64,000 nucleotides of DNA from Schmidtea nova (Eukaryota), in the NCBI GenBank assembly GCA_044892505.1, contig CM097883.1, positions 292,454,001 through 292,518,000 on the forward strand, written 5' to 3'. Below the pieces are notes generated by a model. The model was not told the DNA's origin. It made no database searches and saw only the letters and a program-made list of their open reading frames with translations. The position numbers and the translations under genes are program-made. This document shows, piece after piece, positions 11,983 to 36,697 of this stretch. Position 1 is the stretch's first letter; every line of letters starts with the position of its first letter.

Positions 11983-12944
11983 GTTAAGATTGAAATTGTT
12001 AACCCCAGACTAAGTTGAGTTACATAGCATAACCAGACTGAGATCAACAGCTTGACAGAATTTTTCAACACTACAGATTAATCTTTGACCGAATTTTGTT
12101 ACAAGTAGACAGACTGAAATCAATATTCAAAATTCGATAAGCGAAAAACAGCAATCTATAACCGGATCAATTAGGTACTTTGGTTTCATTTTCGTTTTAT
12201 TATTTTTGTCATTCGATTCATGTTGATCATTTATATGTATTTATATATTAGAAATAAATTTTATTAACATAATATCGAATTTTTCATCATATTAATTTTG
12301 CGCCGATTGGGAGCTTTAGGTTCCCAAGGTGTCAGTCCGTGGCGTGGTGCTCGAGGGCTCCACACACGGTAAAGTAATAAATAACAAAATACGATTTTTA
12401 GTAGTTGAAGAGATTTGCACATGGGACACCCAACGAATCCGGGGAATTATTTTCCGATCATTTTAGCTATAGAGGAGGCGATTTTCAGATAAAGTCTAAC
12501 GATGTAGGATAGGAAAGAATTTTTTTTTTTTTTTTTTACTGTGAGGAGGCACAATTTTTCACCCTCACCACAGCACAGTCACTAAATAAACATCTAATCA
12601 ACCGTAGAAAATTATGTCGACCGCATTTGATACGAAAGGGGCGTTTTTCCGGGTAAGCTAGGAGGTACATGATGTGAGAGAGTTTCCGTTTTGAGATACA
12701 AATGTTTCGAGGTCCACGCAGACAAATCACCAATTTTCGACTATATTATTGATCGTAAACTGATAAATCTAAGCAGACACGAGAGTAATGTATACCGTAA
12801 CGAGCAACAGTTTTTTCTTGATTTCAGTTAAGGTCTAAGCCGAAGGCAAATAATAAAGGCATCACGATGAGAGATAACATCTACTATAATTAATTATTGA
12901 TTTAAATTGTTAACTATTATAAAATTCAGCATCGTTCTAGTATC

Positions 12945-13421
12945 ATGACTAAACACAGATTCACCATCAAAAAGCGACGAGAACGAGCCCGAATTAGCCC
13001 ATTAAAGCCGGCTCCATTTGAAATTTTGCAACAAATCCATCAAAAAATGTGGGCATGGCGCCGAGAGCTTGAAACCGCATGTCCATTTACAGTATGGGAC
13101 CATCCACGGCATCACGTATGGTACCCGGGATGCGCTAGCTGGCCAATCATTCCAGACGAGGAATTCGAATCATGGCACGCCGCCTGGTTCGTCCTGATGT
13201 TAGATAAACGGGGATTCCCGAGATGTGTAATCTATTGGGGGTTCATTCCAGCCTCCACATTCAAGGAATTGGGGTTCACTTTCCATACAGCAATACGACC
13301 CCTTCGGGAAGCCGAGAGGATCCGTTTTCAGCAGGCCTCGTCCAACTCCACTGGAATCAGCTCTCATCTACAAATCAGATCGATATTTTCGTACCGAGGG
13401 AAAGTGACCGAAGATGGATAG
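12945..13421 (+). CDS. LTR ORF1, 158 aa, Trp-rich, unknown function
   Basis: ATG ORF richer in GC than the flanks; identical protein in the 3' LTR; preceded by ttctag, followed by AATAAA. Confidence 0.65.
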   Translation: MTKHRFTIKKRRERARISPLKPAPFEILQQIHQKMWAWRRELETACPFTVWDHPRHHVWYPGCASWPIIPDEEFESWHAAWFVLMLDKRGFPRCVIYWGFIPASTFKELGFTFHTAIRPLREAERIRFQQASSNSTGISSHLQIRSIFSYRGKVTEDG

Positions 13422-13757
13422 TTGAATCAATGGCCACCTGTTCTAAATTAAATAAATGTTTTAGAGAAATCTGAAGTGTTTCATTTTGTTAATAGCGCTA
13501 TAATGTAGATGAGAAATTTATTAACCTCTAGTGTTGTAGATATTACAGTCAGTAGGACATTCTTTCACTAATGTAAAACAGTTGAGTAAGAATTTTGAGC
13601 CTCCAATCATTAAATAGAAAAATAATTTTTGTGTAAAGATTTAATACTTAAACACAGTAGTATGCATTTTTGCTCCTAAATCGTAAATAGTCACTTAATT
13701 AAAATGACCTTGTTGATAGGTTCTCCAGCGAATTTATCGTTATAATATTCAGACATC

Positions 13758-14342
13758 ATGCCGGTTTCAGAAAACTCGAAGAGAATCATGGGACAAATCC
13801 AAGATAGAAAGTTGAGGGACCAGCAGCGGCAGATCAAGCGACTCACGGTCGCCAATGATGAATTGAGAGCGAAGTGGTTCTCGCCCGAACAAATGAAGGA
13901 CCAATCGAAAAAACTCGAGCGAATGCAGGAAGCACTAACCGCAACTAAATTGGAACTAGACGCCGTCCAGAGAGAACTACGAAATTGCCTAAAGGCAGTA
14001 ACAAGAAGTTATATCGACTCCGAATTACGAGCGCTAATCCGGCCGATCATGGCTCAGCGCTGGACACAAAGTACTTATCAAGATGTCGCTTGCGGGACGG
14101 AAGATGGTATCATCATGGCCCCCACTCTTGTAACGGCCGATTTGCCTACTTTTCACAGTGATCCATCGAGAACAATGGCGTCAGCACCTGTCCTAAACCA
14201 ACAGCTTCGAAAACACCGAATGGGATCGCGACAGCGTCGTCGTCGCCGAGAATTTGCGAAGCGCCTGGACGAGCAAATCCACCACTTGAACTCCTTAACC
14301 GAAGCGGAGTTGATTCAGGAGATTAGTCTGGAGTTTGCGTAG
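13758..14342 (+). CDS. LTR ORF2, 194 aa, coiled coil plus Arg-rich motif
   Basis: Copy in the 3' LTR; diverged homologue at 61921-62406; RKHRMGSRQRRRRRE; AATAAA near 14385. Confidence 0.8.
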   Translation: MPVSENSKRIMGQIQDRKLRDQQRQIKRLTVANDELRAKWFSPEQMKDQSKKLERMQEALTATKLELDAVQRELRNCLKAVTRSYIDSELRALIRPIMAQRWTQSTYQDVACGTEDGIIMAPTLVTADLPTFHSDPSRTMASAPVLNQQLRKHRMGSRQRRRRREFAKRLDEQIHHLNSLTEAELIQEISLEFA

Positions 14343-14909
14343 GAAAACATCAGTGTCAGATAACAACCTGTTTTTTTTTATTTTAATAAAAGTGTTTTTT
14401 GTGTAAATTTTGTCTCTCATCGTGTGATTTCACTAAATAAAATAAATGACTCGATTAAATCATAGAAATAGAAAATCTCATCAGTATTTTTCTCGGACCG
14501 ACCGTTTCTACGTAGAGACTGATTAATTACCTTGTAGATCCGTTAAGGAAAGTGCAATTGGGGAAAGCGGGTGATAGATCATGAGGACAGGTAGTATAAA
14601 ATTCATGGGGAAACGAACATCCATAGAATGTAAATGCGTAAGACCTTCTATCGGCAGCAAGGACCCGAGGGAAGATAAATGGGGAGTAGTTTTGGCAACA
14701 AAGCTCACCTGCCCATCATTTTTCCACCACCGTATGCAGTACCAACTTGACTAGTAGGGAATAGGCAAGGGCATACGCGTGTAGTAGTCATGTTATGTAT
14801 GGTTATGGGCGTGGAATCCCTAGTATACGTACTCATCAATAGTCGTTCAATTTATGATTAACTATTTATTTGAATTACTTAAAACCCACCCATAATCCCA
14901 ACATAAATT

Positions 14910-14922: not shown

Positions 14923-15250
14923 ATGATTCAACTTTGTTTTTATGCGGAAAAGGTGAACCCAATGACAACAAAGAGTTTTAAAATCAGAATTTTATGAGTA
15001 ACCGAAAGAGTAATCGAGACGAAAGCGAGTTGCGTAGAAATAGATAGTTATAGACAGAGAAGTAAAACAAATTGAGTAAATAAATACAACAACTCAATGA
15101 AATAGATAAAGTAAATAAATGCAATTATAAATAACAGGTAGGGACGACAATTTACCGAAACACGGGGGGAGGCTACAAACTGTCGAAAACGAAACACAGT
15201 ACTACTTTTCCAATAATATTAACACATTATTTAAATAAATTATCTAGGAA

Positions 15251-15712
15251 ATGGAGGAAAAACTGAAAGAAATCGAAGAATTTTTCAACACCGAGAACGA
15301 AACATTTGAGACAGTCTGCGAAAAAATAACCCGAATAAGAGCATCCGAATATGAGGAACCTACGACACAAACTGAGGAAACAACTGAGTTAATAAAAATC
15401 ATAGAGAAAGTAAATAAACTCGATATAAATACGCGATATAAATGGTACAAAGCACGATTAGAGGATGCCGAGTTGAATATCAGATGCCGACATATAGAAC
15501 AGCAGTTAAGCCTAACATATAACCGATGGATGTCGCAAGGGGTCGAGGCAGCAAAACAATATAAACAATGTTACATATGCGAAGACAGTGAAATCCAAAT
15601 AATGTTTCTACCATGCGGACATTTTCGATTCTGTAAAAACTGTGCGAATAAGTGTGATGAGTGCCCCATGTGCAATTTCTCTGTAGCTGATAAAATTGTA
15701 GTTTATTTATAA
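15251..15712 (+). CDS. 153-aa protein with C-terminal IAP/Mdm2-type RING-HC finger
   Basis: CYICEDSEIQIMFLPCGHFRFCKNCANKCDECPMC...KIVVYL at the extreme C-terminus, as in IAP RINGs; no BIR motif seen. Confidence 0.85.
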   Translation: MEEKLKEIEEFFNTENETFETVCEKITRIRASEYEEPTTQTEETTELIKIIEKVNKLDINTRYKWYKARLEDAELNIRCRHIEQQLSLTYNRWMSQGVEAAKQYKQCYICEDSEIQIMFLPCGHFRFCKNCANKCDECPMCNFSVADKIVVYL

Positions 15713-16185
15713 TAAATATTTAGAGTGTTAATATATTGTATCGAATGACAAAGTCAGGGGAGCAATCAACAATGTTAATTAATTTTTGAGCTACTGTCAA
15801 GTAGTCCGTTAAGCACCCATTGGGAGGTACCAGTTGATCAACCCACTCGGGGTATATAGAAAGGGGCCAATCGCAAATGTTGGAAAGCTTTTGTGATGTG
15901 ATTGATCACCACATCCCGCATTAGTAGACCAACGCGATCTTTTTGTATATTTTGGTTGGGGAGAGAAATAGGGAAAACCTTGATGAGGTAAGATGCGCGC
16001 AGAGAAAATAATAAAAATTGAATTATGACTGATCAGCGAAATAATTAGTAATAAAACAAAGAATCGAGGAATTATAGAGAAAAATAAGAGGTGCATAATC
16101 AGCTCGCATGAAATTGAGAGAACTCAGCTGAGAAATTGTAGTCGCTAGCGAAGTTAAGAATTACGATTAACCGGTTAAGGGAAAT

Positions 16186-16459: not shown

Positions 16460-16461
16460 TT

Positions 16462-16619: not shown

Positions 16620-16632
16620 ATATCCGGATATA

Positions 16633-17419: not shown

Positions 17420-18801
17420 GACAGGAAAATTGAGTATACAAAAGTAATCCCGTTGAGAAAAGGAGAAAAGAGTGTCATAATAAAACCAACAGAGAAGAAA
17501 GTCGACAATAAAAGTAACAAAAAAGATCAGACCAGTACTACAACAAACCCAACAAAACAGAAGAAAGCCGGCAAAGATAGTAACAAAAACCCAAAGGGAA
17601 GTAAAGCAAGGCAGATAATAATACAAAAGTCGATTATCGAAAACGATAAATTATCAGTAACAAGCAACAGTTCAAGCAACAAAGAAAATCAAGCAGAACC
17701 CGAGAGAAACCCAATAAGCGAAATAGAAGTCGACAAAACCAACAACGATTATATAGAAGAAATAGAAGACGAAGTAGAACAAGAAACAGAAAGTGACGAT
17801 ACCGATAACGATAGTAAAACATCGGACAACGAATCAGCAAAGGAAACTGAGATCGACATAAATTCAAGTGACGAACATAACAGTGAACTAGAAACAAGAG
17901 GAAACGAAAGTAAAATAACTACAGACAGTGGAATTGAAATGAGCGAACCCAGAGAAGAGATAAAAGACAAATTTTCCGGAGAACCGTTTATTGGAGATGC
18001 GAGTAAACTGGAAACTTTCTTAAAGGAATTTGGCATATTCGTGGAAGTATGCAAGTGGAAACCAGAAACAACTGTAAGCAGAATTCAGCTATATTTAAAA
18101 GATAGCGCATTAGATCTATATTTGGAAGCAAAAAACGGAACTAATCCACCTACAAGTTGGTCAGCGATAAAGGACTTTTTCCAACAAACCTTCCGAATAA
18201 ATAAAGTATTGAATGAGGCATTCACGGAATTCTCAATGAGGAAACAAAAGATAAATGAATCGAATGCGGTATATGCAAGCGAATTGAAAAAGTTAGCAAA
18301 GTTGATCTTTAATCAAGACAGCCCAATAAATGAGGAGTTAATGGCAGCTATCTTTGTGGGAGGATTAAGAAGACCCGACATAAGAGCGCAAGTTGGATGT
18401 CAAGGTTGTAAACCATCGACCAAGCACTAGAAACAGCTAATAGATTTGAACTACACATGATAGGAAATGATGGTAGAATCTATTTAGCTATGGATACAGC
18501 ACAAAACGAACAAGAAGTGAACCTGAATAACCACATTCCAAATTCACAACAATTAAACCGACCACCACCGCAACGAAGGAATGAAGGGAATAAAGTATCA
18601 AACTACGGAAATCAAAGCAATTACAACCCCCAAGGACCAACGAAACAATGCAAAACATGTGGGAAATTGGGACATTGGCAACAAGAATGTTATCAGAACT
18701 TGAATTGTGGAAAATGTGGAGTAAAAGGACATTCAGAGAGCAGATGTTACACAATAACCTGTTTTAATTGTGGACGACCTGGACACCTATCAAGAAATTG
18801 C
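17420..18801 (+). CDS. gag: Gag: acidic/basic N-terminal extension, capsid domain and three CCHC knuckles; 1-nt frameshift at ~18410
   Basis: Ty3-like CA (FLKEF...LYLKDSALDLY...SWSAIKDFFQQTF...YASELKKLA...FVGGL); frame change restores TIDQALETANRFE; knuckles CKTCGKLGHWQQEC, CGKCGVKGHSESRC, CFNCGRPGHLSRNC at 18649-18801; start codon unresolved. Confidence 0.9.
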
Positions 18802-19401
18802 GGACAAAGAAGCAATCAACGAGGAAACTGGCAGAATACCGGAAACCGACAAAACTATGGAAACCAACCAACTGGTGGAAACCGACAGAATTATGGAAAT
18901 CAGCCAAATAATGGAAACCGACCGGAATACGGAAACCAACCAAATAGTAATAATAATAACCAAAATAAAAATACCACTAAAGAGATACATTTAATGCAAG
19001 AGGCTCAAAGATTGACGGAGCTGATAAACAATACAACCAGAGGAAATCCGCAAACAGGTCAACAACAAATCAACATGATGAGAAAAATAGAAAGCGAAAA
19101 CGAACGATTGAATCGGGAAAGCCAAGCACGACATGCTCAGGAATGGGCAAGAATACAAAGAGAAGAGGAACAAAAACAGCAAGAAAGAGAACGACAACCT
19201 CTAAGAATTAATATGATGAGAGCAACCAATCAAACAAATACCCACGAGAAAGAGACGGTGCCAGAAATGAATCCAACAAACCTGAATCCAACCAATAACG
19301 AAAGTCGAAAAGAAATAGTACCAGGAAGCGAAGAAACAGAAACAGAGAAGGAAGTAGAAAAAGAAGGGAACCAAGAAGAGAAAAGGAAACTCGGGAAAAG
19401 G

Positions 19402-21770
19402 GGAATGATGGTAATTTTGCCAAACAACCACGTGTTTCGATTCCAATATAACATAAAGGAAGAAGTAGGAATATTGTTCAACAAAGTGAATGAAATGGCT
19501 CCAGGAGTAACGAAACTGCCCAGAGAAGCATTCCTAAAAATAGAAGGTGCACCAGAAGTAAAATTGAAACTAACAGATACATGGGAAAACATGGGAGTAG
19601 TAGAGACAAAAAGAAATGTGATGGTAATCAAGGAAATAGAACCAGAAGGAATTCCATCGCCAGTGCGTCACGAAACACGAATCAGTCGAATATTTAAAGG
19701 GAAAATGATACGAAGACGGTTGCGAGAAATAGACGAGTTGGAACGAAAAATGAGAAAAGTCAAAGTAGTAGACGACGAGAGTAAATCAACACAAAAAACT
19801 ATCGGAAGGGAAACGAAACCAACGGAAAATCCACCAAATGAAACCAACCAAATAAAACACATTAACATGTTGAGAGGCCAGGCAAAGAATTTTTCAGACG
19901 ACGAAGAGGATAGTGACGTCAGTAGTCTAGCAGGGGACATGCTAAACGAACCAGAAATTGAAGACAAAAAGATAGAAGTAGTAAAGACACCAGAAACTAT
20001 TCAAGTAAAAGAGGACGAGATCCAGAAATTACTAGATAATGCGCTAGAAGTAATATATAATGAGGAATTCATTGACAAGAAACACTATCGAAAATTCATG
20101 AGAGCGATATTACAAATGAACTATAAAGAGTGGTTACCAGGCCGGGAAGTAGAAACACTAAGCCAATACGTAGGAAAATTATTAAAAGAACCACTCCATG
20201 AATATATAATACTAATACAGATAAAAACATGTTTGCCAAGGATTTGGATCAAAACTCCACTCACGGAGGATATTTATCAATGGGTAGAAGACAGATTAGG
20301 GAGTTCGTATAAGAACAAATTCCTCTATTCACAGAATGGACTAGTGAAGAAAAGGACGCACCTGATAGAAACAGGCATATGGCCAGGAGAGGTGACAACA
20401 TTATCGATATGCGATGATAAGATAGAAGAGAACCTACAAGAAGTAGCAAAGGAAGCAAATACGTGTTTCGAGAGAAAAATAAAACCACGGTTAGAGTACG
20501 AAAAAGGACGAATCTTACGAGGAAATCTAAATTCCATGATAGAACAAATCATCCCACAAATCAAAAAACATAGAAAGGAGTTAATGAGAAGCGAATACGA
20601 GAAGTTGAAACGATGTATCGAGTGCATACGTGACACAAGTCACACGAGATGGTCACAGATCTCATACGGAAAAGTAATTGCAAAAATGGGAAAAGCAATG
20701 TTCAGACAAGGGAAAATAACAGATCTAAAAATTTCAGTGGAACTGCCTAATGAGGATACCAAGGAAATTGAAGTGGTAGCAGATTGTACCATAAAAGAAT
20801 TAGTAAATGTCATCAACGAGACACTATTACAAAGAGAACCAGAAGAAGAATGGGAAGATGACATAATCATGAAATATAATGAACATGTATTATGGGATCA
20901 CGATGAAAGACGACTATATAAGATGGGTATATGGGACAATCACCAAACCATCCACGTTATCAGAATGGACGATACACCAAGAGAAACTGCTAAAGATGAG
21001 AAAAGAGAACGAGAACGACAAAAAGAAGTTGTGCACAAACTACAACAGATAGTAGACATTTATCGAAATTGGCGGATTTGGCCAGAATGGGAAAATGTAT
21101 TAGAAGAACTCAATCTCAACAGACGATTACGAACACCTGTAGAAAAGAAATGGAACGAGCGAGGAAAATGTTGGGAACCAAAAGCAGGCGAATACGAAGA
21201 AGAATATGAAATAGGCATAGAAGACGATCACAAACCGGAAACCGGAAGAGTCTGTATGGTAACAAGAAAAGCCATGCCAGCGGATTTAGACGGACAAGAA
21301 ACGGCAACCATGTGGTTGGAAAGAGAAAAACAAAAAACGGAAGAATTTGTCGAAATATAAAAAACCAATGCTCATGGCAAGAGAAAATTAGTAAAAGGTC
21401 TCGCAGATTTTTTCGTAGTTAATGGAGAAGACATAACATGCTTGCGTAAAGTAGCAAAAGCAATCGCCGAATACAAAAGAATTAACGAGTGGTGTCCAGA
21501 ACAATTGGATCACGTAATTAAAAAATGGAGAAACCAAGAATTCTCGCAGGAATCGCCACAGAAAGTACACCTAAGAATAGTATATCCGAACCAAGAAAAG
21601 GAAGAGTTTTGGGTAGGGATAGCGGAGAAAGTTCGAGACATTAAAAAGAAATTGAGATATGAACCACCATTCCATTTACAACACCAAGGACGATCATTAG
21701 ATAACAGCTTGGAAATTGGAATAACGCCAGCGCAATTAGATATCGCAAATACATTGACAGTGGCAGCAAT
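19402..21770 (+). CDS. Polyprotein segment with four ubiquitin-like domains; in-frame TAA at 21358-21360
   Basis: By-eye alignment to ubiquitin at ~19402-19632, ~20200-20412, ~20725-20967 (clearest: LKISVELPNEDTKEIEVVADCTIKELVNVINE...LYKMGIWDNHQTIHVI) and ~21562-21770 (FHLQHQGRSLDN). Confidence 0.65.
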
Positions 21771-22257
21771 AGCAGGTCAACCATTGAAATTGAAAGAGGA
21801 AAAGAAACCAAAAGGAAGTATGAGTACGCCGAGCCCAATGAAATCGGTAATGACTCCAGGAACAAGCTCAGAACAAGCTAGAACAACACCAAGAGAGACA
21901 AGAGAAAGAACACCACCAGAACCATACGATGTAGACGAAATTTTTACAGATAGCGATGATATGTTAGAGGAGTTAATAGAGCTAACAAAAGAGAAAGATG
22001 ATAATATTTTCGAAAGAATTCAAGAATTACCAACAGCAATACCGGTAACCAACACCGAAGATGAAGTCGAACAAGAAATAATCATAGAAGAAGTAAATGA
22101 AATAGCAGAAGAGGAAGCAAGGAGGGCAAATGTAGAAAATGTACAATTCACACAAGAAATGGAAAGATGGTTAGAAGAAAGAGCCAATGAACCAAGAGAC
22201 GTCACAGAAGAAACTGGACGAGAAACAAGATTAGTAGAAACGGGCACGACAATGGAT

Positions 22258-22281
22258 AAACGACCTAGAGGTAGACCCAAG
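22258..22281 (+). other. AT-hook motif KRPRGRPK in the polyprotein
   Basis: Canonical PRGRP core flanked by basic residues. Confidence 0.7.
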
Positions 22282-22419
22282 ATAGATCCAGCAAATGTAG
22301 TTATAAAATCAAGAGAGGAAAAAAGACGGGATCAATGGGATTTGTGTCTAAAGAAACTAAATAAAATAGCCGAAACGAAAGAAAAAGAAACAACACAAAC
22401 ATACCAAGGCGAAGAATGG

Positions 22420-25284: not shown

Positions 25285-28200
25285 AAACACCGGTCCAGTA
25301 TTAACTACAACAATCGAAATTAACGGAAGGGAAATAGAAGCGATGATTGATACAGGAGCAAATATCTCAGCAATAGATATAAAATGGATACCACAAGAAC
25401 AAAGACGGGATATTGAGAGAACCAACGTTCACGTAATAGCATGCAGTAAAGAAGTAGTAGAAGTTGCCGGAAGATGGTGGGTAAAGATAAAACATCAAAA
25501 CACGGAAATCGAAACGTACGTAGCAGTAATACCAGCACTAAGCGTACCATGCATTATAGGCACGGATCTGATGCCAGCATTATTTAAAGAAATAGTTATT
25601 GATCTCGGAACAATGAGACTAAAGGATAGGACAGGACAGATATGCGCAATAGAAGCAAAAGTAACAAGTTCGAAACAAATAATCGTACCAGCACGGAGAG
25701 AGAAAATATGCTTCGTAAAAATAGACCCTACAATAGAAGGTGACATGATTTTTGAACCCAGTAAAAGATTTGAAAAGAGAAAGTCGTTGCCAATGGCAAG
25801 GGGATTAGTGAGTGCGAATGAAAACGGAGAAATCCCAATAAATGTAGTAAATTTCGATGAAGAGGATAAAATAATTTATGAAAATGAAAGATTAGGTAAG
25901 CTAACTCCAATGATGGATATCGAAATACCAATAAGAGAGGGAGAAAAAGATGAAGAACCCACCTGGAACATTGATAGCCAACTATTAAATGAGGATCAAA
26001 AGAAACAGCTAGAAAGATTACTGATAGAATATAAAGACATATTCGCAGCATCCGATTTAGATCTAGGGACATGCGACGTCACACTACATACGATTCCACT
26101 AACAGACGAAACGCCGATTGCGTTAAGACCATACAAGTTAGCTGAAGCGCAAAAATCAGTAGCAGAAGCAGAAGTACAGAAAATGCTAGACGCAGAAGTA
26201 ATTGAACCAAGCTGCTCACCGTGGCAATTCCCAGTTGTAATGGTGAAAAAGAAAGACGGAACACAACGATTTTGTATTGATTATCGGAGATTAAATTCAG
26301 TTACAAAAAGGGATACATACCCATTACCGGACATCAACGAGATGTTATTGACATTACAAGGAGCGGCATATTTTACATCATTGGATTTGAAAAGCGGATA
26401 CTGGCAAATTAAAATGAAGGAGGAAGACAAAGAGAAAACTGCTTTCACTATCGGAAGAGACTTGTACCAATTTAGGAAAATGCCATTCGGACTAACCAAT
26501 GCGCCAGCATCATTTCAAAGATGTATGAATTTCGTTACCCACGGCATAAAACAATGCATGGTTTACATTGATGACCTACTAATCTACTCAAGCACATTTG
26601 AACAACACATCCAAGATATCAGAGATGTATTTGTGAGATTGAGACAATGGAAACTCAAGCTCAAACCATCGAAATGCGATTGGGCAAAAGAGAAAGTGAC
26701 ATTTTTAGGACATATTGTGTCCGCAAAAGGAAAGGAACCGGATCCCAGAAACATTGATAAAGTAAAAGAATGTCCAATACCAAAGACTATAACGCAGATC
26801 CAAGAATTTATCGGATTATGCGGTTTCTATAGAAAATTCATAAAGGATTACGCAGGAATTGCAAAACCAATCCAAGAGCTAGTAAAGAAAGACGTATCGT
26901 TCATATGGGGAACCGAACAACAAACAGCTTTCGAAACATTGAGAGACAAGCTAATAACTGCACCAATATTGGTTCACCCGGATTTCAAAAAGCCATTTTT
27001 ACTCGCAACCGACGCAAGTGGATATGCAGCAGGAGCAGTGTTAGGACAATATGATGACGAGGGAAAAGAGCGGGTAATCGGATATTATAGCAGAACATTC
27101 AAGAAACACGAGAAGAATTATTCAGTAACGGAAAGAGAAGCATTGGCAATAATATTAGCAATAAAACACTTCAAATATCTATTATGGGGACACATTATAT
27201 GCATAACCACAGACCATCAACCACTTGTATGGCTAGGACAACATAAGGAAACATCCAGCAGGTTAATGAGATGGGCGATGCAATTACAAGAATATTCACC
27301 AGATATAAAATTCAAATCAGGAAAAGCGAATGCCAACGCAGATTGCATGTCAAGATTAACGTTTCCAGAACTAACAGACCCAGAAGTGCAAAGAATATGC
27401 ATAGTGATAGCAGAGGATTTGGATTTCAGCGAGTTAAAGAAAGATCAGCAAGAGGATAAAGAACTAAGATCCATCATAGAATTCCTAAGCTCACGGAATA
27501 TGGATGTATTCAAAGACAATGCGGAGTTAAAAGAACACATGAGGAAATACCAACATCGATACACAATAGAAAAGGATGGTTATTAATACAGGATGGAGAA
27601 AAACGATTAATGTGTCTGCCAGGTAATAGACGAAAAGAGATAATAACTCAATACCACGACGGAAAGTTGGGAGGACACATGTCCGATAAGAAAACATTAG
27701 ATCGCATGAGACAAAAATATTATTTGCCAACAATGGACGAGGACGTAAAGGAATGGATAAAGAACTGTTTAACTTGTGCCACAAGAAAGGATAGTGGGAA
27801 GAAATGGAAAAATCCCTTAAAACCCATGCCAATACCAGCGGAACCAATGACTACCATTGCGATGGATGTAATAGGACCATTGCTAGAAAGTTTAAACGGG
27901 AATCAATATATATTGGTAATAACGGATTATTTGACTAAATTCCCTGAGGCATTTGCGATGCCGGATCAAAAAGCAAAGACCGTAGCAAGAATTTTAGTAG
28001 AGGAAATATGTTGTCGATACGGAACCCCGAAACAAATACTAACAGATCAAGGAACAAATTTTATGAGCGAAATATTAGATGAAGTAACAAATTACTTCAG
28101 AATAGCCAAATTACGAACGTCACCATATCATCCGCAAACTAATGGACAAACGGAAAGATTTAACGGCACATTGATTCGAATGTTATCCAATTATGTAAGC

Positions 28201-28740
28201 AAACACCAAACAGATTGGGATGAGTACATAAAGCTATGTCTAATGGCATACCGAATGTCGATACACGCAGCAACAAAATTGAGTCCATTTCAATTAATGT
28301 ATGGAAGGGAATGCAATATGCCAATAGATCTTGAATATCAACCACCTTTGTCTCAATATATGGAGGAAGATGATTACGTCACCAAATTCAAAGAACGAAT
28401 GCAAGAGATATGGAAGACAGCAGAACTAAACATAAAGTTTTATCAAGAAAGTTACAAGGACCTACACGATCAAAAGAAAAATGTTAAAACAAATGATCTT
28501 AAACCCGGAGATTGGGTAATGATAGAAACCCCAGAAATAATACCAGGAACCGTTAAAAAACTACAAAGACCAGGAAAAGGCCCTTACGAAGTTATATACA
28601 AAAAGGAAAACAATGTGAAGGTAAAACTTGTTAATCGACCATTGATACGACCAATATACGTTAATACATGCAGATGTAAAAAAGTACCAAAGACAATAAC
28701 CACAGCGCCAGAAGAACGAATAATAACCAGATCCCAGACA
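25285..28740 (+). CDS. pol: Pol: aspartic protease, dUTPase-like spacer, RT, RNase H, integrase; 1-nt frameshift at ~27581
   Basis: DTGA 25349-25360; YIDD 26564-26575; TDASG...EREALA...TDH...NADCMSR; HHCC finger, MDVIGP, TDQG, QTERFN, GPY. Confidence 0.97.
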
Positions 28741-28769
28741 GCCAGAATGAATATGCTCAGAGCAACCAA

Positions 28770-30470
28770 TGAAAGTACCGAAGCAGAAAACAATCAACAA
28801 GAAAAAAGAAACAAGGAAATTGTACTAAAAGCCAGAGAAATGATGGGAAAATGGCATGTCAGAGACGATATATTAAGAGATATACAATTGATAATTAGTG
28901 ATTACGCAAGGGGACTACCAACAAAACCAGTCATTTCAGAACTACTGGAGAAAATTCCAGAAATACTTTCACTACAAGACATAGGAGGACAACCAGCATT
29001 ACATAACGCCATAAAATTGGGAGAAGTAGAGAGAGTAAAAGAATTTCTAAAAATCGCAAAGGAAACAAACCAACACCTTGGTTTTGGGAATAGCGAACAA
29101 GAAACACCATTAATGGTAGCAGCCATCTACAAATCGGATAAAACAATAATAGACCTTTTGATAAATGCCGATTTCAACTGGACGGAACGCGATAGAGAAA
29201 ACAAAACAGTCTTGAATCACGCAATATGGAGCTCAAATCAGATAATGCTCAAACAAATAATCGAGAAGGCCACTTGGGAAATAGACGAACTGATCAAGGG
29301 TGATATAATAAAGGAAGCAATAAAAATCGGTAACTGCAAAACAATACGCAAGCTAATAAAATGGAAAAGATCCGAAAATGATACATGGGTGCTAAATATA
29401 AACGAGGTATACAGTGAAGGACAAAACGCGTTATTACAATTCCTATTAAAATTAGTTTGTGATCAGAAAACACTGTTAATATTATTGGACAGAAGAAATA
29501 TCACAATTTCCAAAAACAAAGAGGAGTGTAAATTCGAAAGTGAAAAAGAAGCATTATTCAGGAAAATTAGGGAATGGTGTGCAAAATCGCTAACCAAGTC
29601 GATAACTTACAAAGATATATCCAATTTTCAAGATAAGTACAAAACGGTGGAGGAAGAGTATGACAAACTAGTAGACATATTAAACCACCCCGAAAAATGC
29701 AAACAATTCCTATGTCAAAAGGAAAGAGAAAGCAAAAGGAAATTTACACCACTTTTCAGCGCAGAGGTACCATATCAAGAAAGGTTGGATGCGATACAAG
29801 ACAAAGCAAAAGAACTATTACCAGAATTCGAAAATTCTAAACATACACTGGAGATACTCGGAGCAATTGTGGAAAAGGTACACGCATACGCGGAAGGAAC
29901 TTACAATGAAAACGATATGATGATCATAAAAAGAGAAATGCCAGTGACTTTCTTATTAACAAAGAAGGGAGTATTGCCAATACATAGAGCCTTACGAGCA
30001 GGAAAAGATAGGAGGGTAGTCGAAATTGCACGGTTGATGCAAGATTGCGGAAGTGACATGAACATGAAAGATAAATAGGGAGATACCCTCATGATATTCG
30101 CAGCAAGAGCGAACACAAAAACCCGAGTGTTACAGGAACTGTACGAAGCAGGTGCAGGACTCATGGGAAGAACGGGCAAAGACAGCTCAATACTAGACGT
30201 AGCATTGTTAACGCACAATTGGGAGGTGATAAATTTTATAAAAACAATCACAAATCAGGAAGAAATAGAATACCTTACAAGGACAGTTAAAAAAGCTAGC
30301 GTACATTCCATGATGCATAACGCTGAACTAACCGAAGCAATACTCAATTGGATGAACCCAAACACCAATGAACCAGCATTCAGGATCAACGAGTTCATGG
30401 AACAAGGCCAAAAATTTGTATATAAAGTGTGCATTAATAATAAACAAATGGCCAAAGATAATGGACAAGA
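28770..30470 (+). CDS. Ankyrin-repeat region fused after integrase; in-frame TAG at 30076-30078
   Basis: GQPALHNAIKLG, ETPLMVAAI, DRENKTVLNHAI, GVLPIHRAL, KDK*GDTLMIFAA, SSILDVAL. Confidence 0.88.
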
Positions 30471-30566
30471 AAAAAAGAAGAAAAAAAGAAGAAAAAAAGA
30501 AGAAAAGATTTACGATTCACAAACAACCCAAAAGAAACAGAACGTACGGACAAATGGAAAGAACTA

Positions 30567-32912
30567 ATGAAAACGTACCTTAATAATTGGATAAAAGCCA
30601 AGAAAGAGATTCTAGATTGTAAATTAACCGATAAGGAAATACCTAAGCAGGCAGAAACACAAGAATATGAAGCAAGTATACTCACAACCATAACGTATGA
30701 AAAAATGATAGAAGCAATTAATGTCGAGGACGACATTTTCAACGACCAAAGGGGAGGCGACAATACAGGAAACGACGACGATAGTACTCGAGAAAATCCA
30801 GAGGATCATGAGTTATCAGATAAAGAGGACAGTGAAGAGAAAGGAAGGGACACAGAGAAAAATGATAAGAAAAATGAATTTGGGAAACAAAGAAACAACA
30901 ACTATAAAAATAAAAACGAAGCAAAAAGAACAGGCTACAAACAAACAATAAACCCATTCTTTAAACCAGAACTATTATTACTAACGGTAATCATGACCTT
31001 AATTAGTCCAACTCAAGGAATGATATGTGAAGAAAGAGCGACAATACAAATTAGAAACGCAAAAGGAATCGAACGAGTATGTTGGTCAAAAAAGGACAAA
31101 ATCTCGGGACAAAATAGTCAAATGGATTGCAGGATCTCAGAATACGAACAAGAAATCATAGAGATCGATGACTTAGAGCTAGATACTTGGTACAAAATAT
31201 GCACCATCAGAAAACAAAGGAATCCAAGATCACACAACACAATCGCATGTGCAAACTACCTAACACCCAAAGTAACCATAACAGTACAGCAGTCATCCAA
31301 AGGAGACTATGTCGTAGGAAAGTGTGGAAGAACAGAGACACAAGGAACAAAAAACAAGAAACCCCAGACAATAGACAGACGAACAACGCCAACTATACGA
31401 ATTACAATAGACAAGCCCGAAGCAAGAGTAACCACAAACGAGACCGAAAGAGTGACCTACCAAACAGAATTACTATGTTTAGCACTCATATTAACAATGT
31501 TAAAACGGTTAGAAGAAGGGATAGACATTGACACAATGGCAGTAACAGAGATGAACGACACCCAAAATACCAACCCAAAGTGTTGGGCCCGAAACAACGA
31601 AGAAATTGGCATAAGCGAAATAAAGAGGAGTCGGAAAAGGAAAACAAATAAAGTAACCAAGATACCAAAAGTAAAAGCAGACAGGACGTATGAACTATGT
31701 TTACTAGAAAAAGAAAGACACAAGAAAGGAACGACAATTTGTAAAACATTTCAACCTGGGGAGGCAATAAAGTTCATAAGAAGAAGAAGAAGAAATATAC
31801 GCACCAAACGGAGAACAACTATAATGTTAGAGTTAACCGGGATAGAACCGGACGTCAAAGGCGTATGCTGGAAGAAGCAGGAAAAGAAAACAAACCAGAA
31901 TATACCGCCGCAATGTCGAACAAACAGAGGAACAACCACAATACAGATCGAAGGATTAGAAAGCAATCAAACGTACGAAATATGCCTGATTAGGAAAAGC
32001 GACAAAATAACAGTAAATGAATTGGAATGCAAATTATATAAAACACCCACCAGAACAAGAGTTGGAAAGACATCGCGAAAAAGTAGAAGACAACGGAACA
32101 AAGGAAAAGCGAGGTATACCACTACCTTTAAACCTAATGGACAACAGAAAAACCAAGAAATACAAATAAAAACCGAAAAGAATACTACAGCAACTCTTAT
32201 ACTATGGAGAATAGACAATAAAACGTTAGAAATATGTTGGGCAGTAGTTCAGGAACAAAAAGAAAGACAGCCACGATACTGCGAAAACGTAAAAGGAAAA
32301 GAAGAAATGAGTATCAAAAATCTGAAATTTAATAGAGAATACGAGATATGTGCGGTAGAAAAGACGGACATATTGGGAAATCAGCAGGAAAGATGCGAAA
32401 CGTACTACACACCGGTAAACTCAACGTCCAAAGGGAAAGTGAGAAAACTCGAATTTAAAGAATTAAGTCAGACAACGAAACAAATGGACGCAGAACAAGT
32501 AGTAATAGACCCTTACGCAAGATGGACGCCGGAAGAAGTAATTAAAGAAGTTAAAAGAAAACAACAAGAACGAGAACAATTACTAAATAAACTAAAGGGA
32601 CAATACGGACCAATGATTACCCAGAGTGAAATTACGAAGATGGACGTAAACAAACAAGTTAGAGAACTAATTGGTCTAGGAATACTAGCAGCAACTATTC
32701 CAGTAATAACAGTGTTATTAATAATATGGATATACGATGTACTCAACAAGAAACCAATAACACATTGGCCAGATATAAAAATTATGAACTACAGAATAGA
32801 ATTACCGGAAGAAGTACAGAAAGAATTTCAAAGGAGGACGAAAGGTAAAGAATTTTGGAGACAAATAGAAGATGAAGAGCGGTACGAAGGAAAGACAGTG
32901 ATGGTGATATAG
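30567..32912 (+). CDS. 781-aa membrane protein with four Cys-containing FN3-like repeats; frame open from 30462, probably continuous with the polyprotein
   Basis: Signal-like ELLLLTVIMTLISPTQG; repeated W...I..L....Y.IC motif (IDDLELDTWYKIC, IPKVKADRTYELC, IEGLESNQTYEIC, IKNLKFNREYEIC); polybasic linkers; TM LIGLGILAATIPVITVLLIIWIY. Confidence 0.75.
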   Translation: MKTYLNNWIKAKKEILDCKLTDKEIPKQAETQEYEASILTTITYEKMIEAINVEDDIFNDQRGGDNTGNDDDSTRENPEDHELSDKEDSEEKGRDTEKNDKKNEFGKQRNNNYKNKNEAKRTGYKQTINPFFKPELLLLTVIMTLISPTQGMICEERATIQIRNAKGIERVCWSKKDKISGQNSQMDCRISEYEQEIIEIDDLELDTWYKICTIRKQRNPRSHNTIACANYLTPKVTITVQQSSKGDYVVGKCGRTETQGTKNKKPQTIDRRTTPTIRITIDKPEARVTTNETERVTYQTELLCLALILTMLKRLEEGIDIDTMAVTEMNDTQNTNPKCWARNNEEIGISEIKRSRKRKTNKVTKIPKVKADRTYELCLLEKERHKKGTTICKTFQPGEAIKFIRRRRRNIRTKRRTTIMLELTGIEPDVKGVCWKKQEKKTNQNIPPQCRTNRGTTTIQIEGLESNQTYEICLIRKSDKITVNELECKLYKTPTRTRVGKTSRKSRRQRNKGKARYTTTFKPNGQQKNQEIQIKTEKNTTATLILWRIDNKTLEICWAVVQEQKERQPRYCENVKGKEEMSIKNLKFNREYEICAVEKTDILGNQQERCETYYTPVNSTSKGKVRKLEFKELSQTTKQMDAEQVVIDPYARWTPEEVIKEVKRKQQEREQLLNKLKGQYGPMITQSEITKMDVNKQVRELIGLGILAATIPVITVLLIIWIYDVLNKKPITHWPDIKIMNYRIELPEEVQKEFQRRTKGKEFWRQIEDEERYEGKTVMVI

Positions 32913-33037
32913 GAGGCGGGATATGACTGTAAATAATAGTGTAAATAACAATGCATTACCGTATTAGTAGGGGTATCGATATTATAAAAATATAAAAAGA
33001 GAAATCGAGAAAACGAATAATGTATATAATTTAGAAA

Positions 33038-33394
33038 ATGAACGAACAGGAAGAAATAGCAGAAACTACTATGGCTATGCGATGGAAAGCCCAGTGTGAC
33101 ATGTTAATACGAACAATCAACTCACTACAAAATCAGTTAATGGAGAAACAGAATTTGTTATCCGAAAGTTATAATAATAGTTTTGAGCAACTCCACAGAA
33201 TCGAGGAGCAACAGAGATTGATAACGCAACTTACCAGAGAGAATCAAGCGATAAGCGATATAAACCAAAGGCAAGCAATAGAGATAGACCGTTTAACAAT
33301 GGGAGAGACAGAAGAAGCAGAGGATAGATGGACAAATTGGGCAATAAACAGATCAGAAAATGACCCAGAACCAGATTCAACAAACGAGCCGTAG
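33038..33394 (+). CDS. 118-aa coiled-coil protein, unknown function
   Basis: ATG ORF bounded by AT-rich spacers; heptad-like Q/E/L pattern. Confidence 0.65.
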   Translation: MNEQEEIAETTMAMRWKAQCDMLIRTINSLQNQLMEKQNLLSESYNNSFEQLHRIEEQQRLITQLTRENQAISDINQRQAIEIDRLTMGETEEAEDRWTNWAINRSENDPEPDSTNEP

Positions 33395-33485
33395 ATAAAT
33401 AAAGCGAAAAATTGTAAATATGTAAAAACAAAAACAAGAAAAATCAAAAAATAGATAACAAATCAAGTGTATATATCATTGTAGA

Positions 33486-34868
33486 ATGAATACAGAAGGA
33501 AAAGCCGAAGAGCGGATAATCGAAATTTTGAGAGCCGAGAACAGGAAATGGAGTCAGAGACTCACTTGTGTAAATTGTAAAAACATAATATTGAAACCAA
33601 GACAAACCCTATGCGGATGCAGAGTATGTACCAAATGCATACACGAGTTAAGTATGAAAAGACCACCAGAATGTCCAGAATGCAAAGAAGGACAAATAAA
33701 ATTCGAAGAAACCGGACCAGATAGAGCAACTCAGAGAGAAATCATGAACACGAAAACCGAATGTATAAATCAACCATGTATATGGCAAGGACAAATACGC
33801 GATCTCGAGAACCATCTGGAGAACTGCGAGGAGAAGAGAACTGAATGTAACAAATGCCAACAAAAAATAACTATAAAGAATAAAGAGCAGCACAAAGATG
33901 AATGTAAAGAAGAGGAAAGTCTATGCGAATATTGTGGAACTCGAGAAACGAGGAGAAAGATCGAAGAAGAACACCTGAATGTAAAAGAGGAGAAAGTATG
34001 TAGACAATATGTAGGAATATGTTCAAACGAATGCGAGATAACGGTAGAAGTAAAATTACAAGAACATTGGAAAGTGTGCACGGAGAAACCAAGGGAATGT
34101 CCTTATAACAAACAGGGATGTATGGAGAAAAGAACGCAACAAACCATGAAACAACATCTGGAGGAAGCATTGCTAAAGCATGCGGAAATGACAAACGAAG
34201 CAACAAAAGAAACCGAACAAACAATCAAAAAATTAGAAAGAGAAATAGAGTCACACAAGATAATGGTAAACCTACTGTTGGAAACCAGAGAGCAATTCGA
34301 ACTAACACGAGAAAAGATGGAGGAAAAGATAAAAGCTATCGAAGAATTGGCTAAAGGAATGAAAATCCAGTAAAACAAACTCACCCAGGATACCGAGGAA
34401 AAGCTACCAATCGCACCATATGTGTGGAAAGTGACAGATTTTAGAGACAAATTAACAGAGGCCAGAAATATGACGAAAACAGCAGTAATAAGCCCACCAT
34501 TTTATTTATGGAGAAACGGAGCTAAAGTGAGATTGAAGCTATACCCAAATGGAGACGGAAGAGGACGGGGAACACATGTGTCAATATTTTTCTCGCTATG
34601 TAAAGGAGAATACGACGACCTCGTAGAATGGCCCTTGAAAGTAGGAGTCATTATAAGAATCAGAAGTGTAACAAAACCGGTGGAAAAATTCTTTGAGACA
34701 GAGAAACATGCGAGCACGAGCGAGAAACCAACCACAGAATGTGGATTAGCAGCGGGAGAACCGATGTTTATAACGAAAGAAAGCCTATGGGAACGATTAT
34801 ATGCAGACACCCTATACATAGAAATGGAAAGGAATGAGAAAGCGGATAGAAAAGGATGGTTGACGTAA
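33486..34868 (+). CDS. Full-length TRAF-like protein (RING, TRAF zinc fingers, coiled coil, MATH); in-frame TAA at 34371-34373
   Basis: CVNC...PRQTLCGCRVCTKC...CPEC; PDRATQREI...C....C.WQG; WKVTDF...ISPPFY...KVRLKLYPNGDGRGRGTHVSIFFSLCKGEYDDLVEWP. Confidence 0.92.
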
Positions 34869-34981
34869 CAAGAAAAGTGATCATGTAAATAATATGTACA
34901 GTTAAATACCCAAAAATTATTATATAAACAAAAATAACTGATATATAAACCGATTAAAATTTTCATTCTGTAATTATAGCA

Positions 34982-36043
34982 ATGGGAAATATCGAAGTAT
35001 GCTTACAGGAAATTACGATGCATCAAGCAGAAGCGATTAGCGATCATCTAGAACAGATTGAAATATGGGTCAATGCATATTATGGAAAGCCAGAGGAGAT
35101 AGAGAGACAAGCCGAATTATTAAAAGAAGCGGAAAGATCAAGTCAAAGAAATCGAGAAAAAATAGAAGAAGTATACAAAATGCTACAACAACAAAAGGAA
35201 TATTACCAGGGAATGATGAAAGAGCGACGAGAGGAAAGAGACAGACAGCAGATGGAAGCTGAACACAAGATGTATTCGATTACAGAACAAGCAAGATACT
35301 GGAAGAAAGAAGCGAAAGAATCTTACGAAAAAGCTAGAGGAATAATAGAAAAGACAGCTTATAGTGATGACTGGAAATTATATAAAGAAATCGACGAATT
35401 AAAAGACGAGTTAGAACAGAAAATACACCAAGAAGTGTTGAATAAGAGATGGAATACAAAGAGACAGCAATTTATCCGGGAACAAGCAAAGAAAATTAAA
35501 GGACTCACCTATCAAGTTCAAAGAATGGGAGAAGAACTAGATAATCAAGAACAACTGAAAATTATGCTCACCGGAATATGGAATCAGAAAGAAGAAGAGA
35601 TGAAGAGAGATATAAATGGTTATCAAGGAGTGATTACCCAGAAGAAAATAGAGCTAAAAAGAACCAGAGAAAGGTTAAAGGAAGAGAAACAAAGTTATGA
35701 GGAAAATTTAACGAATTTGATGAAAGAAAACGAAGAATTGAAACAGAAACGAGTAACAGTATCAGTAACACCCAAAGAAGCAAGTATAACGGCAGCCGTA
35801 ACAAAAATGATGAAAGAAGACGAACAAAAGACAAAAGCAATCGAATTAGAGAAGCAAATAGAAACATTAACAGAACAAGCAAATTACCTAGAATATTTGC
35901 TGGACGAGGAGATCCAGATATCTCACATGTATCGAGATGAAGTCGAAATGTGGAGGAGCAGGGTTGTTTGGATACCACTCCCCACGAACCAGGTAGAACC
36001 TCAGGACGAAGGTTTCTATGAACCAAATGAGACGATTGTGTAA
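34982..36043 (+). CDS. 353-aa coiled-coil protein, unknown function
   Basis: Long uninterrupted E/K/Q/R-rich ORF. Confidence 0.75.
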   Translation: MGNIEVCLQEITMHQAEAISDHLEQIEIWVNAYYGKPEEIERQAELLKEAERSSQRNREKIEEVYKMLQQQKEYYQGMMKERREERDRQQMEAEHKMYSITEQARYWKKEAKESYEKARGIIEKTAYSDDWKLYKEIDELKDELEQKIHQEVLNKRWNTKRQQFIREQAKKIKGLTYQVQRMGEELDNQEQLKIMLTGIWNQKEEEMKRDINGYQGVITQKKIELKRTRERLKEEKQSYEENLTNLMKENEELKQKRVTVSVTPKEASITAAVTKMMKEDEQKTKAIELEKQIETLTEQANYLEYLLDEEIQISHMYRDEVEMWRSRVVWIPLPTNQVEPQDEGFYEPNETIV

Positions 36044-36125
36044 ATAAAGCGGAAAATATATTTTTGTAAATAATTGTATGAAATGTAGTGTCAAATTGTA
36101 TTGACCTATCTGTAAAGAAAACAGT

Positions 36126-36697
36126 ATGAAAAAGCTCAGAATACCGATATTCCTATACCTAATAACAATCACCCTACAAAGAGAAGATCTTCAACTCACA
36201 GAGAAGGAGCTACGAGCCCTACCCGAGAAAACCTATCAAGAGCTAGATAAACTAATCAGCGAAGCAACACAAGAAATCACCCAACTTCAACAGATAACAT
36301 TAGACAACCCAAACGACGAAAAATTTCAACAGACCCTATATGAACATCGAATCAAATTGAAAACAATCAGAAAACCCTAAAAGAAGGTCGAGAACCCATA
36401 AAAAGCTTAGCCCAAGCAGAGATAGAATATCAAGAAAAATGGATCATCGCAATTATAATAATCCTTGCACTCAGCGTGACCATTATCGCGATCACAATCC
36501 TCATAACATCATACCGAGTGAAGATCCTAAAACAAAAACAAGTTATCCTGAATCGAACAACAATACAAGACATCAGAACCCAAAAGCGAATGAGAAAACA
36601 CCTAAACCGAATCCAAAGCCACTACGAACTACGAACAATCAGCGAAAGAACCCCAATCCAATCCAATACCAATCATGAAATCAAAGAGCTTGTGTAA
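36126..36697 (+). CDS. ~190-aa small type I membrane protein, reconstructed across a frameshift at ~36370
   Basis: Signal-like MKKLRIPIFLYLITITL; after the frame change ENPKRRSR (furin-like), then TM WIIAIIIILALSVTIIAITILIT and a basic tail. Confidence 0.55.

What the first reader, a model, noticed from the sequence alone, without database searches (positions are those of the whole stretch)
12938..36126. All seven accessory ORFs have a YAG 1-5 nt before the ATG: operon-like or complex-retrovirus splicing
Seen: ttctag-tatc-ATG (12945), ttcag-acatc-ATG (13758), tctag-gaa-ATG (15251), tttag-aaa-ATG (33038), tgtag-a-ATG (33486), tatag-ca-ATG (34982), aacag-t-ATG (36126), with AT-rich spacers and AATAAA-like signals after several ORFs. 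Candidate donors lie in the LTR leader (ag|gtactt ~12175, cg|gtaaag ~12369). Established: flatworms and nematodes resolve polycistrons by spliced-leader trans-splicing, and complex retroviruses splice a common leader onto many acceptors. Inference: the element uses one of these mechanisms.
Basis: partly seen in the sequence, partly recalled or inferred. Interest (0 to 1): 0.72.

Follow-up and report, generated by a model that had tools for sequence, protein, structure and literature searches.

The report
Giant retrotransposon splices one shared leader
A 29-kb virus-like jumping gene puts a splice-acceptor signal just in front of each of its seven extra genes, and two copies elsewhere in the genome have one short leader joined exactly to the first or the second of these sites, so the element likely makes its many proteins by alternative splicing, as HIV-like viruses do.

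Summary
All 7 accessory ATGs of this 28.7-kb Burro-like Ty3/gypsy element have a YAG 1-5 nt upstream, against 16% of its ATGs overall. The pattern holds in 15 of 19 accessory ORFs of five diverged families in the same genome.

Two complete proviruses elsewhere in the genome lack, in both LTRs, exactly the stretch from this donor to the ORF1 acceptor or to the ORF2 acceptor. One leader is therefore cis-spliced to at least two acceptors.

For the RING gene and the four 3' genes the acceptors are inferred. Their partner (this leader, a second internal donor at 15988, or the host spliced leader) is open, because no RNA data were served. The gag frame has no ATG for 173 codons and probably gets its start codon from a spliced mini-exon.

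The scan noted this pattern before on other copies of this genome; one note reported one spliced copy. I found no paper describing it, but two key Burro papers were not held.

The parts
11553..14903 (+). 5' LTR, 3,351 bp, holding promoter, leader, ORF1 and ORF2; 4-bp target duplication at 11549-11552 and 40250-40253
   Evidence: 99.5% identical to the 3' LTR; ends and flanks read; start fixed by other copies
11919..11954 (+). CCAAT box and TATA box, predicted LTR promoter; start of transcription inferred near 11978
   Evidence: kept in families A, A', B, F while flanks diverge; 20 of 20 copies read
11978..12174 (+). AUG-free leader exon (5' end inferred), hypervariable between copies
   Evidence: 119-237 nt, 0 ATG in 19 of 19 copies and the window against 1.8-4.1 expected each; most divergent LTR bins
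12175..12180 (+). 5' splice donor of the leader
   Evidence: kept in 19 of 19 copies; left breakpoint of both spliced-type proviruses
   Evidence: z -3.4; hairpins at the same place in A', B, E, C, D with z -2.0 to -6.1; no Rfam match
12927..12940 (+). tandem acceptors of ORF1 (YAG ending 12929, TAG ending 12940)
   Evidence: 12940 is the right breakpoint of copy L142/L143; states across copies
12945..13421 (+). ORF1, 158 aa, no Pfam match; repeated in the 3' LTR
   Evidence: homologue at 28-30% identity in family B
13750..13752 (+). acceptor of ORF2
   Evidence: right breakpoint of copy L184/L185
13758..14342 (+). ORF2, 194 aa, no Pfam match; AATAAA at 14385
14633..14824 (+). most conserved LTR block, just before the primer binding site (near 14910; tRNA-Pro type, label recalled)
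   Evidence: the only LTR part that aligns with family B by blastn; alignment; a similar stretch seen by eye in family E
15245..15712 (+). predicted acceptor (ends 15247) and RING-finger ORF, 153 aa
   Evidence: PF13920; 21 of 21 copies keep the TAG; CAG in family B, TAG in family E
15819..15993 (+). second CCAAT/TATA-like module, then ATG plus 2 nt plus a donor at 15988: predicted mini-exon giving the gag start codon
   Evidence: module and phase-2 donor kept in family B; donor GT in 33 of 34 and ATG in 28 of 34 family A copies; inference only
17420..32912 (+). gag-env-PR-RT-RH-IN-ankyrin polyprotein frame, in several pieces in this copy; open without ATG for 173 codons; predicted phase-2 acceptor ending 17424
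   Evidence: long open frames in family B copy
32913..33394 (+). 122-nt spacer, predicted acceptor ending 33034, ORF of 118 aa
   Evidence: YAG kept in B and E
33395..34868 (+). 90-nt spacer, predicted acceptor ending 33484, TRAF gene (zinc fingers and MATH; a stop at 34371-34373 in this copy)
34869..36043 (+). 111-nt spacer, predicted acceptor ending 34979, ORF of 353 aa, no Pfam match
36044..36696 (+). 81-nt spacer, predicted acceptor ending 36124 (AAG ending 36117 is the B-like alternative), ORF frameshifted in this copy (190 aa in L021)
32928..36072 (+). eight TGTAHATA motifs (Pumilio-type element, label recalled) in or at the four 3' spacers
   Evidence: 8 of the 9 on this strand of the element; 7 counted in the spacers against a shuffle mean of 0.12, 0 of 20,000 shuffles as high
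36902..40249 (+). 3' LTR

Best explanation
The YAGs are 3' splice sites: a short AUG-free leader exon in the LTR is joined to the ORF1 or the ORF2 site in two proviral copies, and the same kind of cis-splicing likely delivers the RING gene, gag-pol and the four 3' genes as single-gene messages. Shown by DNA: the donor at 12175 has been joined to two different acceptors, and such spliced, near-genome-length RNA was copied and integrated. Inferred: RNA polymerase II starts near 11978; the spliceosome picks one acceptor per molecule; the ribosome meets the wanted AUG 1-5 nt after the joint; most messages end at a polyadenylation signal just after their stop; unspliced read-through RNA is the genome. 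Also inferred: a second promoter-like module after the RING gene gives an ATG-bearing mini-exon (donor 15988) that is spliced to 17424 to start gag, and it may also feed the 3' genes.
For: 7 of 7 in the window against 16% background. 15 of 19 in families B-F against 287 of 1,717 other ATGs, p 4e-9, homologues not independent. This includes LTR ORFs at 28-39% protein identity with unalignable DNA, and a TAG/CAG swap. Donor kept in 19 of 19 hypervariable leaders; exon AUG-free; 2-6 ATGs in the same length after the donor. Donor-side searches of three family A leader types gave 4 places where the exon is not followed by GT. All 4 are the paired LTRs of two proviruses joined exactly to the ORF1 or ORF2 acceptor. 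Each has a 4-bp target duplication and LTRs 99.9% identical. Copy 2 shares only 2 letters between exon end and intron end. Smaller families C and D show the same module before their single accessory gene: CCAAT, TATA, short exon, GT, hairpin, T-rich AG.
Against: No RNA evidence: no RNA holder was listed and the four runs laid look like DNA. No joined copy was found for RING, gag or any 3' gene (and the donor-side searches). Leader-to-internal joins would lose the primer binding site, so this absence is weak. The closest unspliced relative of copy 1 over 420 nt has GG, not AG, at that acceptor; relatives with AG differ by 1 and 4 letters. With AG there are 4 shared letters, so a template switch could mimic copy 1. 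Introns to the 3' genes would be 21-24 kb from the LTR donor. The 81-122-nt spacers fit flatworm operon spacing. One copy (L020) has lost the donor GT. In the gag scan 16 GT/GC sites with an in-frame upstream ATG occur in family A; 15988 stands out only by consensus and conservation. C and D have the phase-2 AG without such an exon.
Confidence: 0.68

Rival explanations
1. Mixed system: ORF1 and ORF2 are cis-spliced to the LTR leader, but the tightly packed 3' genes (and perhaps RING) are an operon on the read-through RNA, resolved by 3' cleavage plus host spliced-leader trans-splicing.
For: Spacers of 81-122 nt with no donor or CCAAT/TATA module of their own. They match flatworm operon spacing: at most 300 bp in PMC12582326, a peak near 100 bp in PMC8629364 (passages). 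SL trans-splicing occurs in Schmidtea (PMC10899757, passages). Flatworm acceptors are often shared by cis and trans splicing (PMC12582326). Cer1 is a gypsy precedent for an SL-spliced subgenomic RNA (PMC3315495, passages).
Against: The same acceptor layout is shown cis-spliced at two sites, and is paired with a nearby donor in C and D. Gaps are a multiple of three in 2 of 7 window sites and 8 of 15 in other families (read). That is no clear preference for the frame of the flatworm SL's terminal AUG (recalled). No foreign-leader copy was found at the RING, TRAF or 33034 sites (weak).
Confidence: 0.24
2. The internal genes have their own promoters, or are read by re-initiation from a polycistronic RNA, and their AGs are unused relics or part of the start context.
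For: TATA-like AT runs lie 40-55 nt before two of the 3' ATGs. Families C and D and the Tor elements of Oikopleura use internal promoters (PMC4402516, passages).
Against: No CCAAT/TATA module lies in any spacer, and none found within the polyprotein is kept in family B. The YAG survives deep divergence at changing distances from the ATG, which fits a splice site and not a fixed start context.
Confidence: 0.06
3. The whole pattern is chance in AT-rich DNA, and the two deleted copies are template-switch deletions.
For: Copy 1 may share 4 letters at its ends; the pattern was picked after the fact.
Against: Replication in five other families. 4 of 4 non-GT leader places land on named acceptors, and copy 2 shares 2 letters only.
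Confidence: 0.02

Closest known systems
Burro / GYPSM1 giant Ty3/gypsy elements of dugesiid planarians (PMC6431247, section 7 read in full)
   Same: About 29 kb with long LTRs; one giant gag-env-pol frame with env between gag and protease; ankyrin repeats; TRAF/MATH and RING cargo; many recent copies.
   Different: TRAF is a separate gene downstream of pol here; no BIR gene in this family (present in family E); two ORFs inside the LTR. The section read says nothing on how accessory ORFs are expressed.
Complex retroviruses (HIV-type major donor to many acceptors; foamy-virus internal promoter for accessory genes); mechanism recalled, reviews seen only as search listing
   Same: One 5' leader donor joined to alternative acceptors just upstream of start codons; unspliced RNA is the genome; a second internal promoter is predicted.
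   Different: A Ty3/gypsy-like element. The leader, an intron and two genes lie inside the LTR. Most genes appear to have their own polyadenylation signal (closer to the adenovirus late unit, recalled). Gag itself seems to need splicing.
SL-resolved operons of flatworms and nematodes, and SL1 splicing of Cer1 (PMC12582326, PMC8629364, PMC3315495; passages)
   Same: Genes 80-120 nt apart on one strand, each preceded by an acceptor close to the ATG.
   Different: A cis donor exists upstream and is shown used at two sites; no SL join was seen or testable.
Tor elements of Oikopleura (PMC4402516, passages)
   Same: Env-bearing LTR elements in a trans-splicing host (host trait recalled) that express a downstream gene by LTR-leader cis-splicing or from an internal promoter.
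   Different: One downstream gene there; seven accessory genes plus gag-pol here.

Membership tests
Burro-type giant Ty3/gypsy elements | Total length near 30 kb with long LTRs | tested here: met
   28.7 kb, LTRs 3.35 kb
Burro-type giant Ty3/gypsy elements | Gag with CCHC knuckles, then mononegavirus-like env, then PR-RT-RH-IN in one frame | tested here: met
   Domain order by Pfam; in pieces in this copy; a family B copy has gag and env in one frame and RT-IN in one frame
Burro-type giant Ty3/gypsy elements | Ankyrin repeats and MATH/TRAF domain | tested here: met
   PF12796, PF21355, PF02176
Burro-type giant Ty3/gypsy elements | BIR domain (B-IAP of Burro1) | tested here: not met
   No BIR in 16 element ORFs scanned; found in family E. 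So not Burro1 itself
Burro-type giant Ty3/gypsy elements | BCL2-like motif before env | tested here: inconclusive
   A BH2-like motif is seen by eye (recalled) near 22780; no Pfam hit, no PDB hit for the family B region
Burro-type giant Ty3/gypsy elements | Sequence or tree placement with Burro1-4 | not testable with these tools
   Reference sequences not held; Grohme 2018 not held
Complex-retrovirus-type alternative splicing (works like) | One 5' donor joined to two or more acceptors | tested here: met
   Two proviruses, ORF1 and ORF2 joins
Complex-retrovirus-type alternative splicing (works like) | All accessory genes reached from the common donor | tested here: inconclusive
   No joined copy for the five internal genes; such joins lose the primer binding site
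Complex-retrovirus-type alternative splicing (works like) | Element-encoded regulator of splicing or export (Rev-like) | not tested
   ORF1 and ORF2 have basic stretches, and hairpins lie in the intron; no test
SL-resolved eukaryotic operon | Same-strand genes at most 300 bp apart with an acceptor before each downstream gene | tested here: met
   81-122 nt for the four 3' genes
SL-resolved eukaryotic operon | Acceptor without an upstream cis donor | tested here: not met
   Donor 12175 is used for ORF1 and ORF2; a second strong donor lies at 15988. For the 3' genes the nearest conserved donor-like sites are in coding DNA
SL-resolved eukaryotic operon | Spliced leader on the mature messages | not testable with these tools
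   No RNA run listed

The most novel reading that the evidence does not exclude
A Ty3/gypsy element has independently evolved a full complex-virus expression programme. Eight single-gene messages come from one or two leaders, with a leader, an intron and two genes inside the LTR, a gag start codon supplied by a spliced mini-exon, and Pumilio-type elements dosing the 3' genes. The 3' cassette may in addition be a retroelement operon resolved by the host spliced leader.
Probability: 0.35. Interest if true: 0.8.

Novelty: new variant of a known kind. Interest (0 to 1): 0.63.

Why it matters
Burro elements fill planarian genomes. One of them is reported to aid stem-cell survival through a captured apoptosis gene (as cited in PMC13465017, passages). 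How such an element expresses many cargo genes from one RNA was not stated in what I could read. This gives exact, testable junctions, DNA fossils for two of them, and a simple rule for how cargo is added: put an acceptor before the ATG. It also sets up a clean test of cis against trans splicing on one transcript in a host group that has both.

Tried and rejected
RNA evidence: no RNA holder listed. The four unlabelled runs cover spacers and LTR alike and list no GT..AG joint among 15 of 24 and 15 of 28 joints shown; not counted for or against.

Rfam: 0 matches in the element.

Acceptor-side searches for joined copies:
- ORF1: 9 and 0 matches, all point variants that keep YAG; these looked at 12929, not 12940.
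- RING: 2 point variants.
- TRAF: 0. 33034: 0.
- Family B ORF1: 1 point variant.
- The acceptors at 34979, 36124 and 17424 were not searched from the acceptor side.

Donor-side searches: window-type leader 0; B 0 (one of two candidate donors); C 0; E 2 point variants; 15988 one GT-to-GC variant.

Other checks:
- 30 RING-region and 10 TRAF-region copies showed no break at an acceptor.
- Internal deletions in L021 and L017 do not lie at the named donors or acceptors.
- Linkage of LTR segments to 5' or 3' internal DNA in 21 copies could not place the U3/R border.
- TATA-like site at 14595 rejected as the main promoter: variable in A, absent in B.
- Donor-like site at 15138 rejected: not kept in most copies or in B.
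- A shared non-AUG (AUU) gag start was weakened: in family E that codon is not in the gag frame. It stays possible for C and D.

Papers not held: Grohme 2018; Lee et al. 2026 Dev Cell. No supplements were read.
Full report
THE ELEMENT. The finding lies in one LTR retroelement, 11553-40249. Its LTRs are 3.35 kb and 99.5% identical, with a 4-bp target duplication. Pfam gives gag, CCHC knuckle, a mononegavirus-type fusion glycoprotein, protease, RT, RNase H, integrase and ankyrin repeats in this order, in a frame that is in pieces in this copy. It also gives a RING gene before gag and a TRAF gene after pol. This matches the Burro elements of planarians (PMC6431247, section 7 read in full); a planarian host is inferred from that likeness only. 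The genome holds at least 86 close copies and a second family at 86-88% protein identity (top 150 of 2,448 candidates). ORF1 and ORF2 lie inside the LTR.

OBSERVATION. All seven YAGs are present at gaps of 4, 5, 3, 3, 1, 2 and 1 nt. The background is 90 of 551 element ATGs, 8 of 80 in its non-coding parts and 101 of 635 in the flanks. To escape the after-the-fact choice I read other families from the same genome: B (LTR DNA mostly unalignable, LTR proteins 28-39% identical), E (BIR-bearing, eight accessory ORFs), F (a lone LTR), and the smaller C and D with one accessory gene each. Of their 19 accessory ORFs, 15 have a YAG at gap 0-5, against 287 of 1,717 other ATGs (p 4e-9; homologues are not independent). 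The four misses are B's last ORF (AAG at gap 2), C (gap 6), E's last ORF (gap 17) and E's TRAF, where a second in-frame ATG 18 codons on has a YAG at gap 1. The distance changes while the YAG stays, and TAG swaps with CAG before the RING gene. That is how a splice acceptor behaves, not a fixed start context.

THE LEADER. A CCAAT and TATA pair at 11919-11954 is kept in families A, B and F while its flanks diverge. The stretch after it is the most variable part of the LTR, 119-237 nt in 19 copies read of 20 fetched. All 19 end in the same GT donor and none holds an ATG, against 1.8-4.1 expected each and 2-6 in the same length after the donor. The lone F LTR keeps the donor but has 2 ATGs; copy L020 has lost the GT. 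After the donor come a T-rich run and hairpins (z -2.0 to -6.1 in six sequences). Families C and D carry this same module internally, about 100-120 nt of intron ahead of their single accessory gene.

DIRECT EVIDENCE. Three family A leader types gave four places. Two are the LTRs of a complete provirus on G000:C2 near 349.65-349.68 Mb (L142, L143). There the leader is joined to the position matching window 12941, removing 798 nt relative to L091; the target duplication is 4 bp and the LTRs differ by 1 letter in 2,031. The other two are the LTRs of a provirus on G000:C1 near 499.30-499.32 Mb (L184, L185). There the leader is joined to the ORF2 acceptor, removing about 1.5 kb with ORF1; the target duplication is 4 bp and the LTRs differ by 2 letters in 1,749. 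Caveat: that ORF1 acceptor is AG in only 17 of 60 copies read. The nearest relative of copy 1 over 420 nt has GG, while relatives 1 and 4 letters away have AG. With AG the ends share 4 letters, so copy 1 alone could be a template switch. Copy 2 shares only the AG. Copies with GG keep a YAG 11 nt upstream (60 of 60; 19 of 20), the likely alternative acceptor.

THE FIVE INTERNAL GENES. No joined copy was found for RING, TRAF or 33034 from the acceptor side, nor from any leader searched. A leader-to-internal splice removes the primer binding site, so such copies are not expected. The acceptors at 34979 and 36124 were not searched from their own side. The four 3' spacers are 81-122 nt and hold no donor or promoter module. 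They carry eight of the element's nine TGTAHATA motifs. AATAAA is present in two of them and is common in the element (58 sites). This layout fits either long-range cis-splicing with alternative polyadenylation or an operon resolved by the host spliced leader. Flatworm operons have such spacing, and flatworm acceptors are often shared by both kinds of splicing (PMC12582326, PMC8629364, passages). SL splicing is reported in Schmidtea (PMC10899757, passages) and on a gypsy element in C. elegans (PMC3315495, passages). I favour cis because the same layout is shown cis-spliced at two sites and is paired with a close donor in C and D. No RNA was available.

GAG. The gag frame is open without ATG for 173 codons in A and 197 in B, with a conserved coding start. 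A YAG sits at its start in phase 2 in A and B, and a phase-2 YAG lies near the start in C, D and E. After the RING gene there is a second CCAAT/TATA-like module (15819-15860), then an ATG, two letters and a strong donor at 15988, also in phase 2. B keeps this arrangement with changed letters; 33 of 34 A copies keep the GT and 28 of 34 the ATG. E has a comparable site; C and D do not, and chance candidates are frequent (16 in A). I put the mini-exon start at about even odds; no joined copy was found.

COMPARISON AND NOVELTY. The element belongs to the Burro kind by architecture but is not Burro1 (no BIR). It works like a complex retrovirus at the two shown sites. Searches for Burro with planarian, retrotransposon, splicing or B-IAP terms and for LTR elements with trans-splicing or subgenomic splicing listed no paper on how Burro accessory genes are expressed. 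Most hits were seen as listings only. PMC8532177, PMC13465017 and PMC13238120 were seen as passages. Grohme 2018 and Lee et al. 2026 were not held and may bear on this. Earlier scan notes on other copies of this genome describe the same acceptors, the spacer motifs and the LTR genes.

VERDICT. Real; acceptor function shown for two sites and likely for all seven; cis-splicing of a shared leader is the best reading (0.68), with SL-resolved 3' genes as the main rival (0.24). New variant of a known kind; interest 0.63.

Noticed in passing
window 15819-17424: Gag lacks an ATG for 173 codons; a conserved ATG-bearing phase-2 donor at 15988 matches a phase-2 acceptor at 17424, with tandem repeats (16134-16920) inside the predicted intron.
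   Followed up: partly
window 11978-12286: The leader exon and intron start are hypervariable (distance 0.20-0.24 against 0.05-0.13 elsewhere in the LTR) with a sharp edge at the predicted transcription start; escape from small-RNA silencing is one untested idea.
   Followed up: partly
window 14633-14824: Highly conserved block at the LTR end shared by families A, B and F, with a similar stretch in E; no Rfam match. Contig depth here is several times that of the rest, so many more elements may share it.
   Followed up: no
window 32928-36072: Eight TGTAHATA motifs confined to the four 3' spacers; the motif is also seen in B and E spacers.
   Followed up: partly
L024-L025, L028-L029 (families C and D): Smaller, about 14-kb relatives with env inside the polyprotein, 0.87-kb LTRs and one unknown accessory ORF (468-482 aa) behind its own promoter-like module and short predicted intron.
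   Followed up: partly
L045-L046, L031 (family E): High-copy family with a 3.95-kb LTR lacking long ORFs and eight accessory ORFs including BIR plus RING; its gag frame is about 1,050-1,064 codons in many copies.
   Followed up: partly
L020-L021, L017: Copies with large internal deletions of env-pol that keep a long open frame and all accessory genes; a further 11.9-kb deletion (18909-30859) is seen in all four runs.
   Followed up: no
window 30567-32912: The tail of the polyprotein has repeated cysteine/tryptophan-patterned segments and a hydrophobic stretch, like a membrane protein ectodomain; no Pfam match.
   Followed up: no
L019-L022: The copy at G000:C2 near 264.71 Mb is inserted in a 1.4-kb tandem satellite array.
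   Followed up: no
window 9764-10762 and 40500-40600: The element is inserted at the end of a hAT-like transposon remnant; a 74-bp stretch lies on both sides (11457-11530 and 40538-40612). Other flanking remnants: gypsy integrase 51558, LINE RT 59627, nuclear-receptor zinc-finger piece 61247, Polinton-like pieces 1661-5033 and 63289 (labels partly recalled).
   Followed up: no
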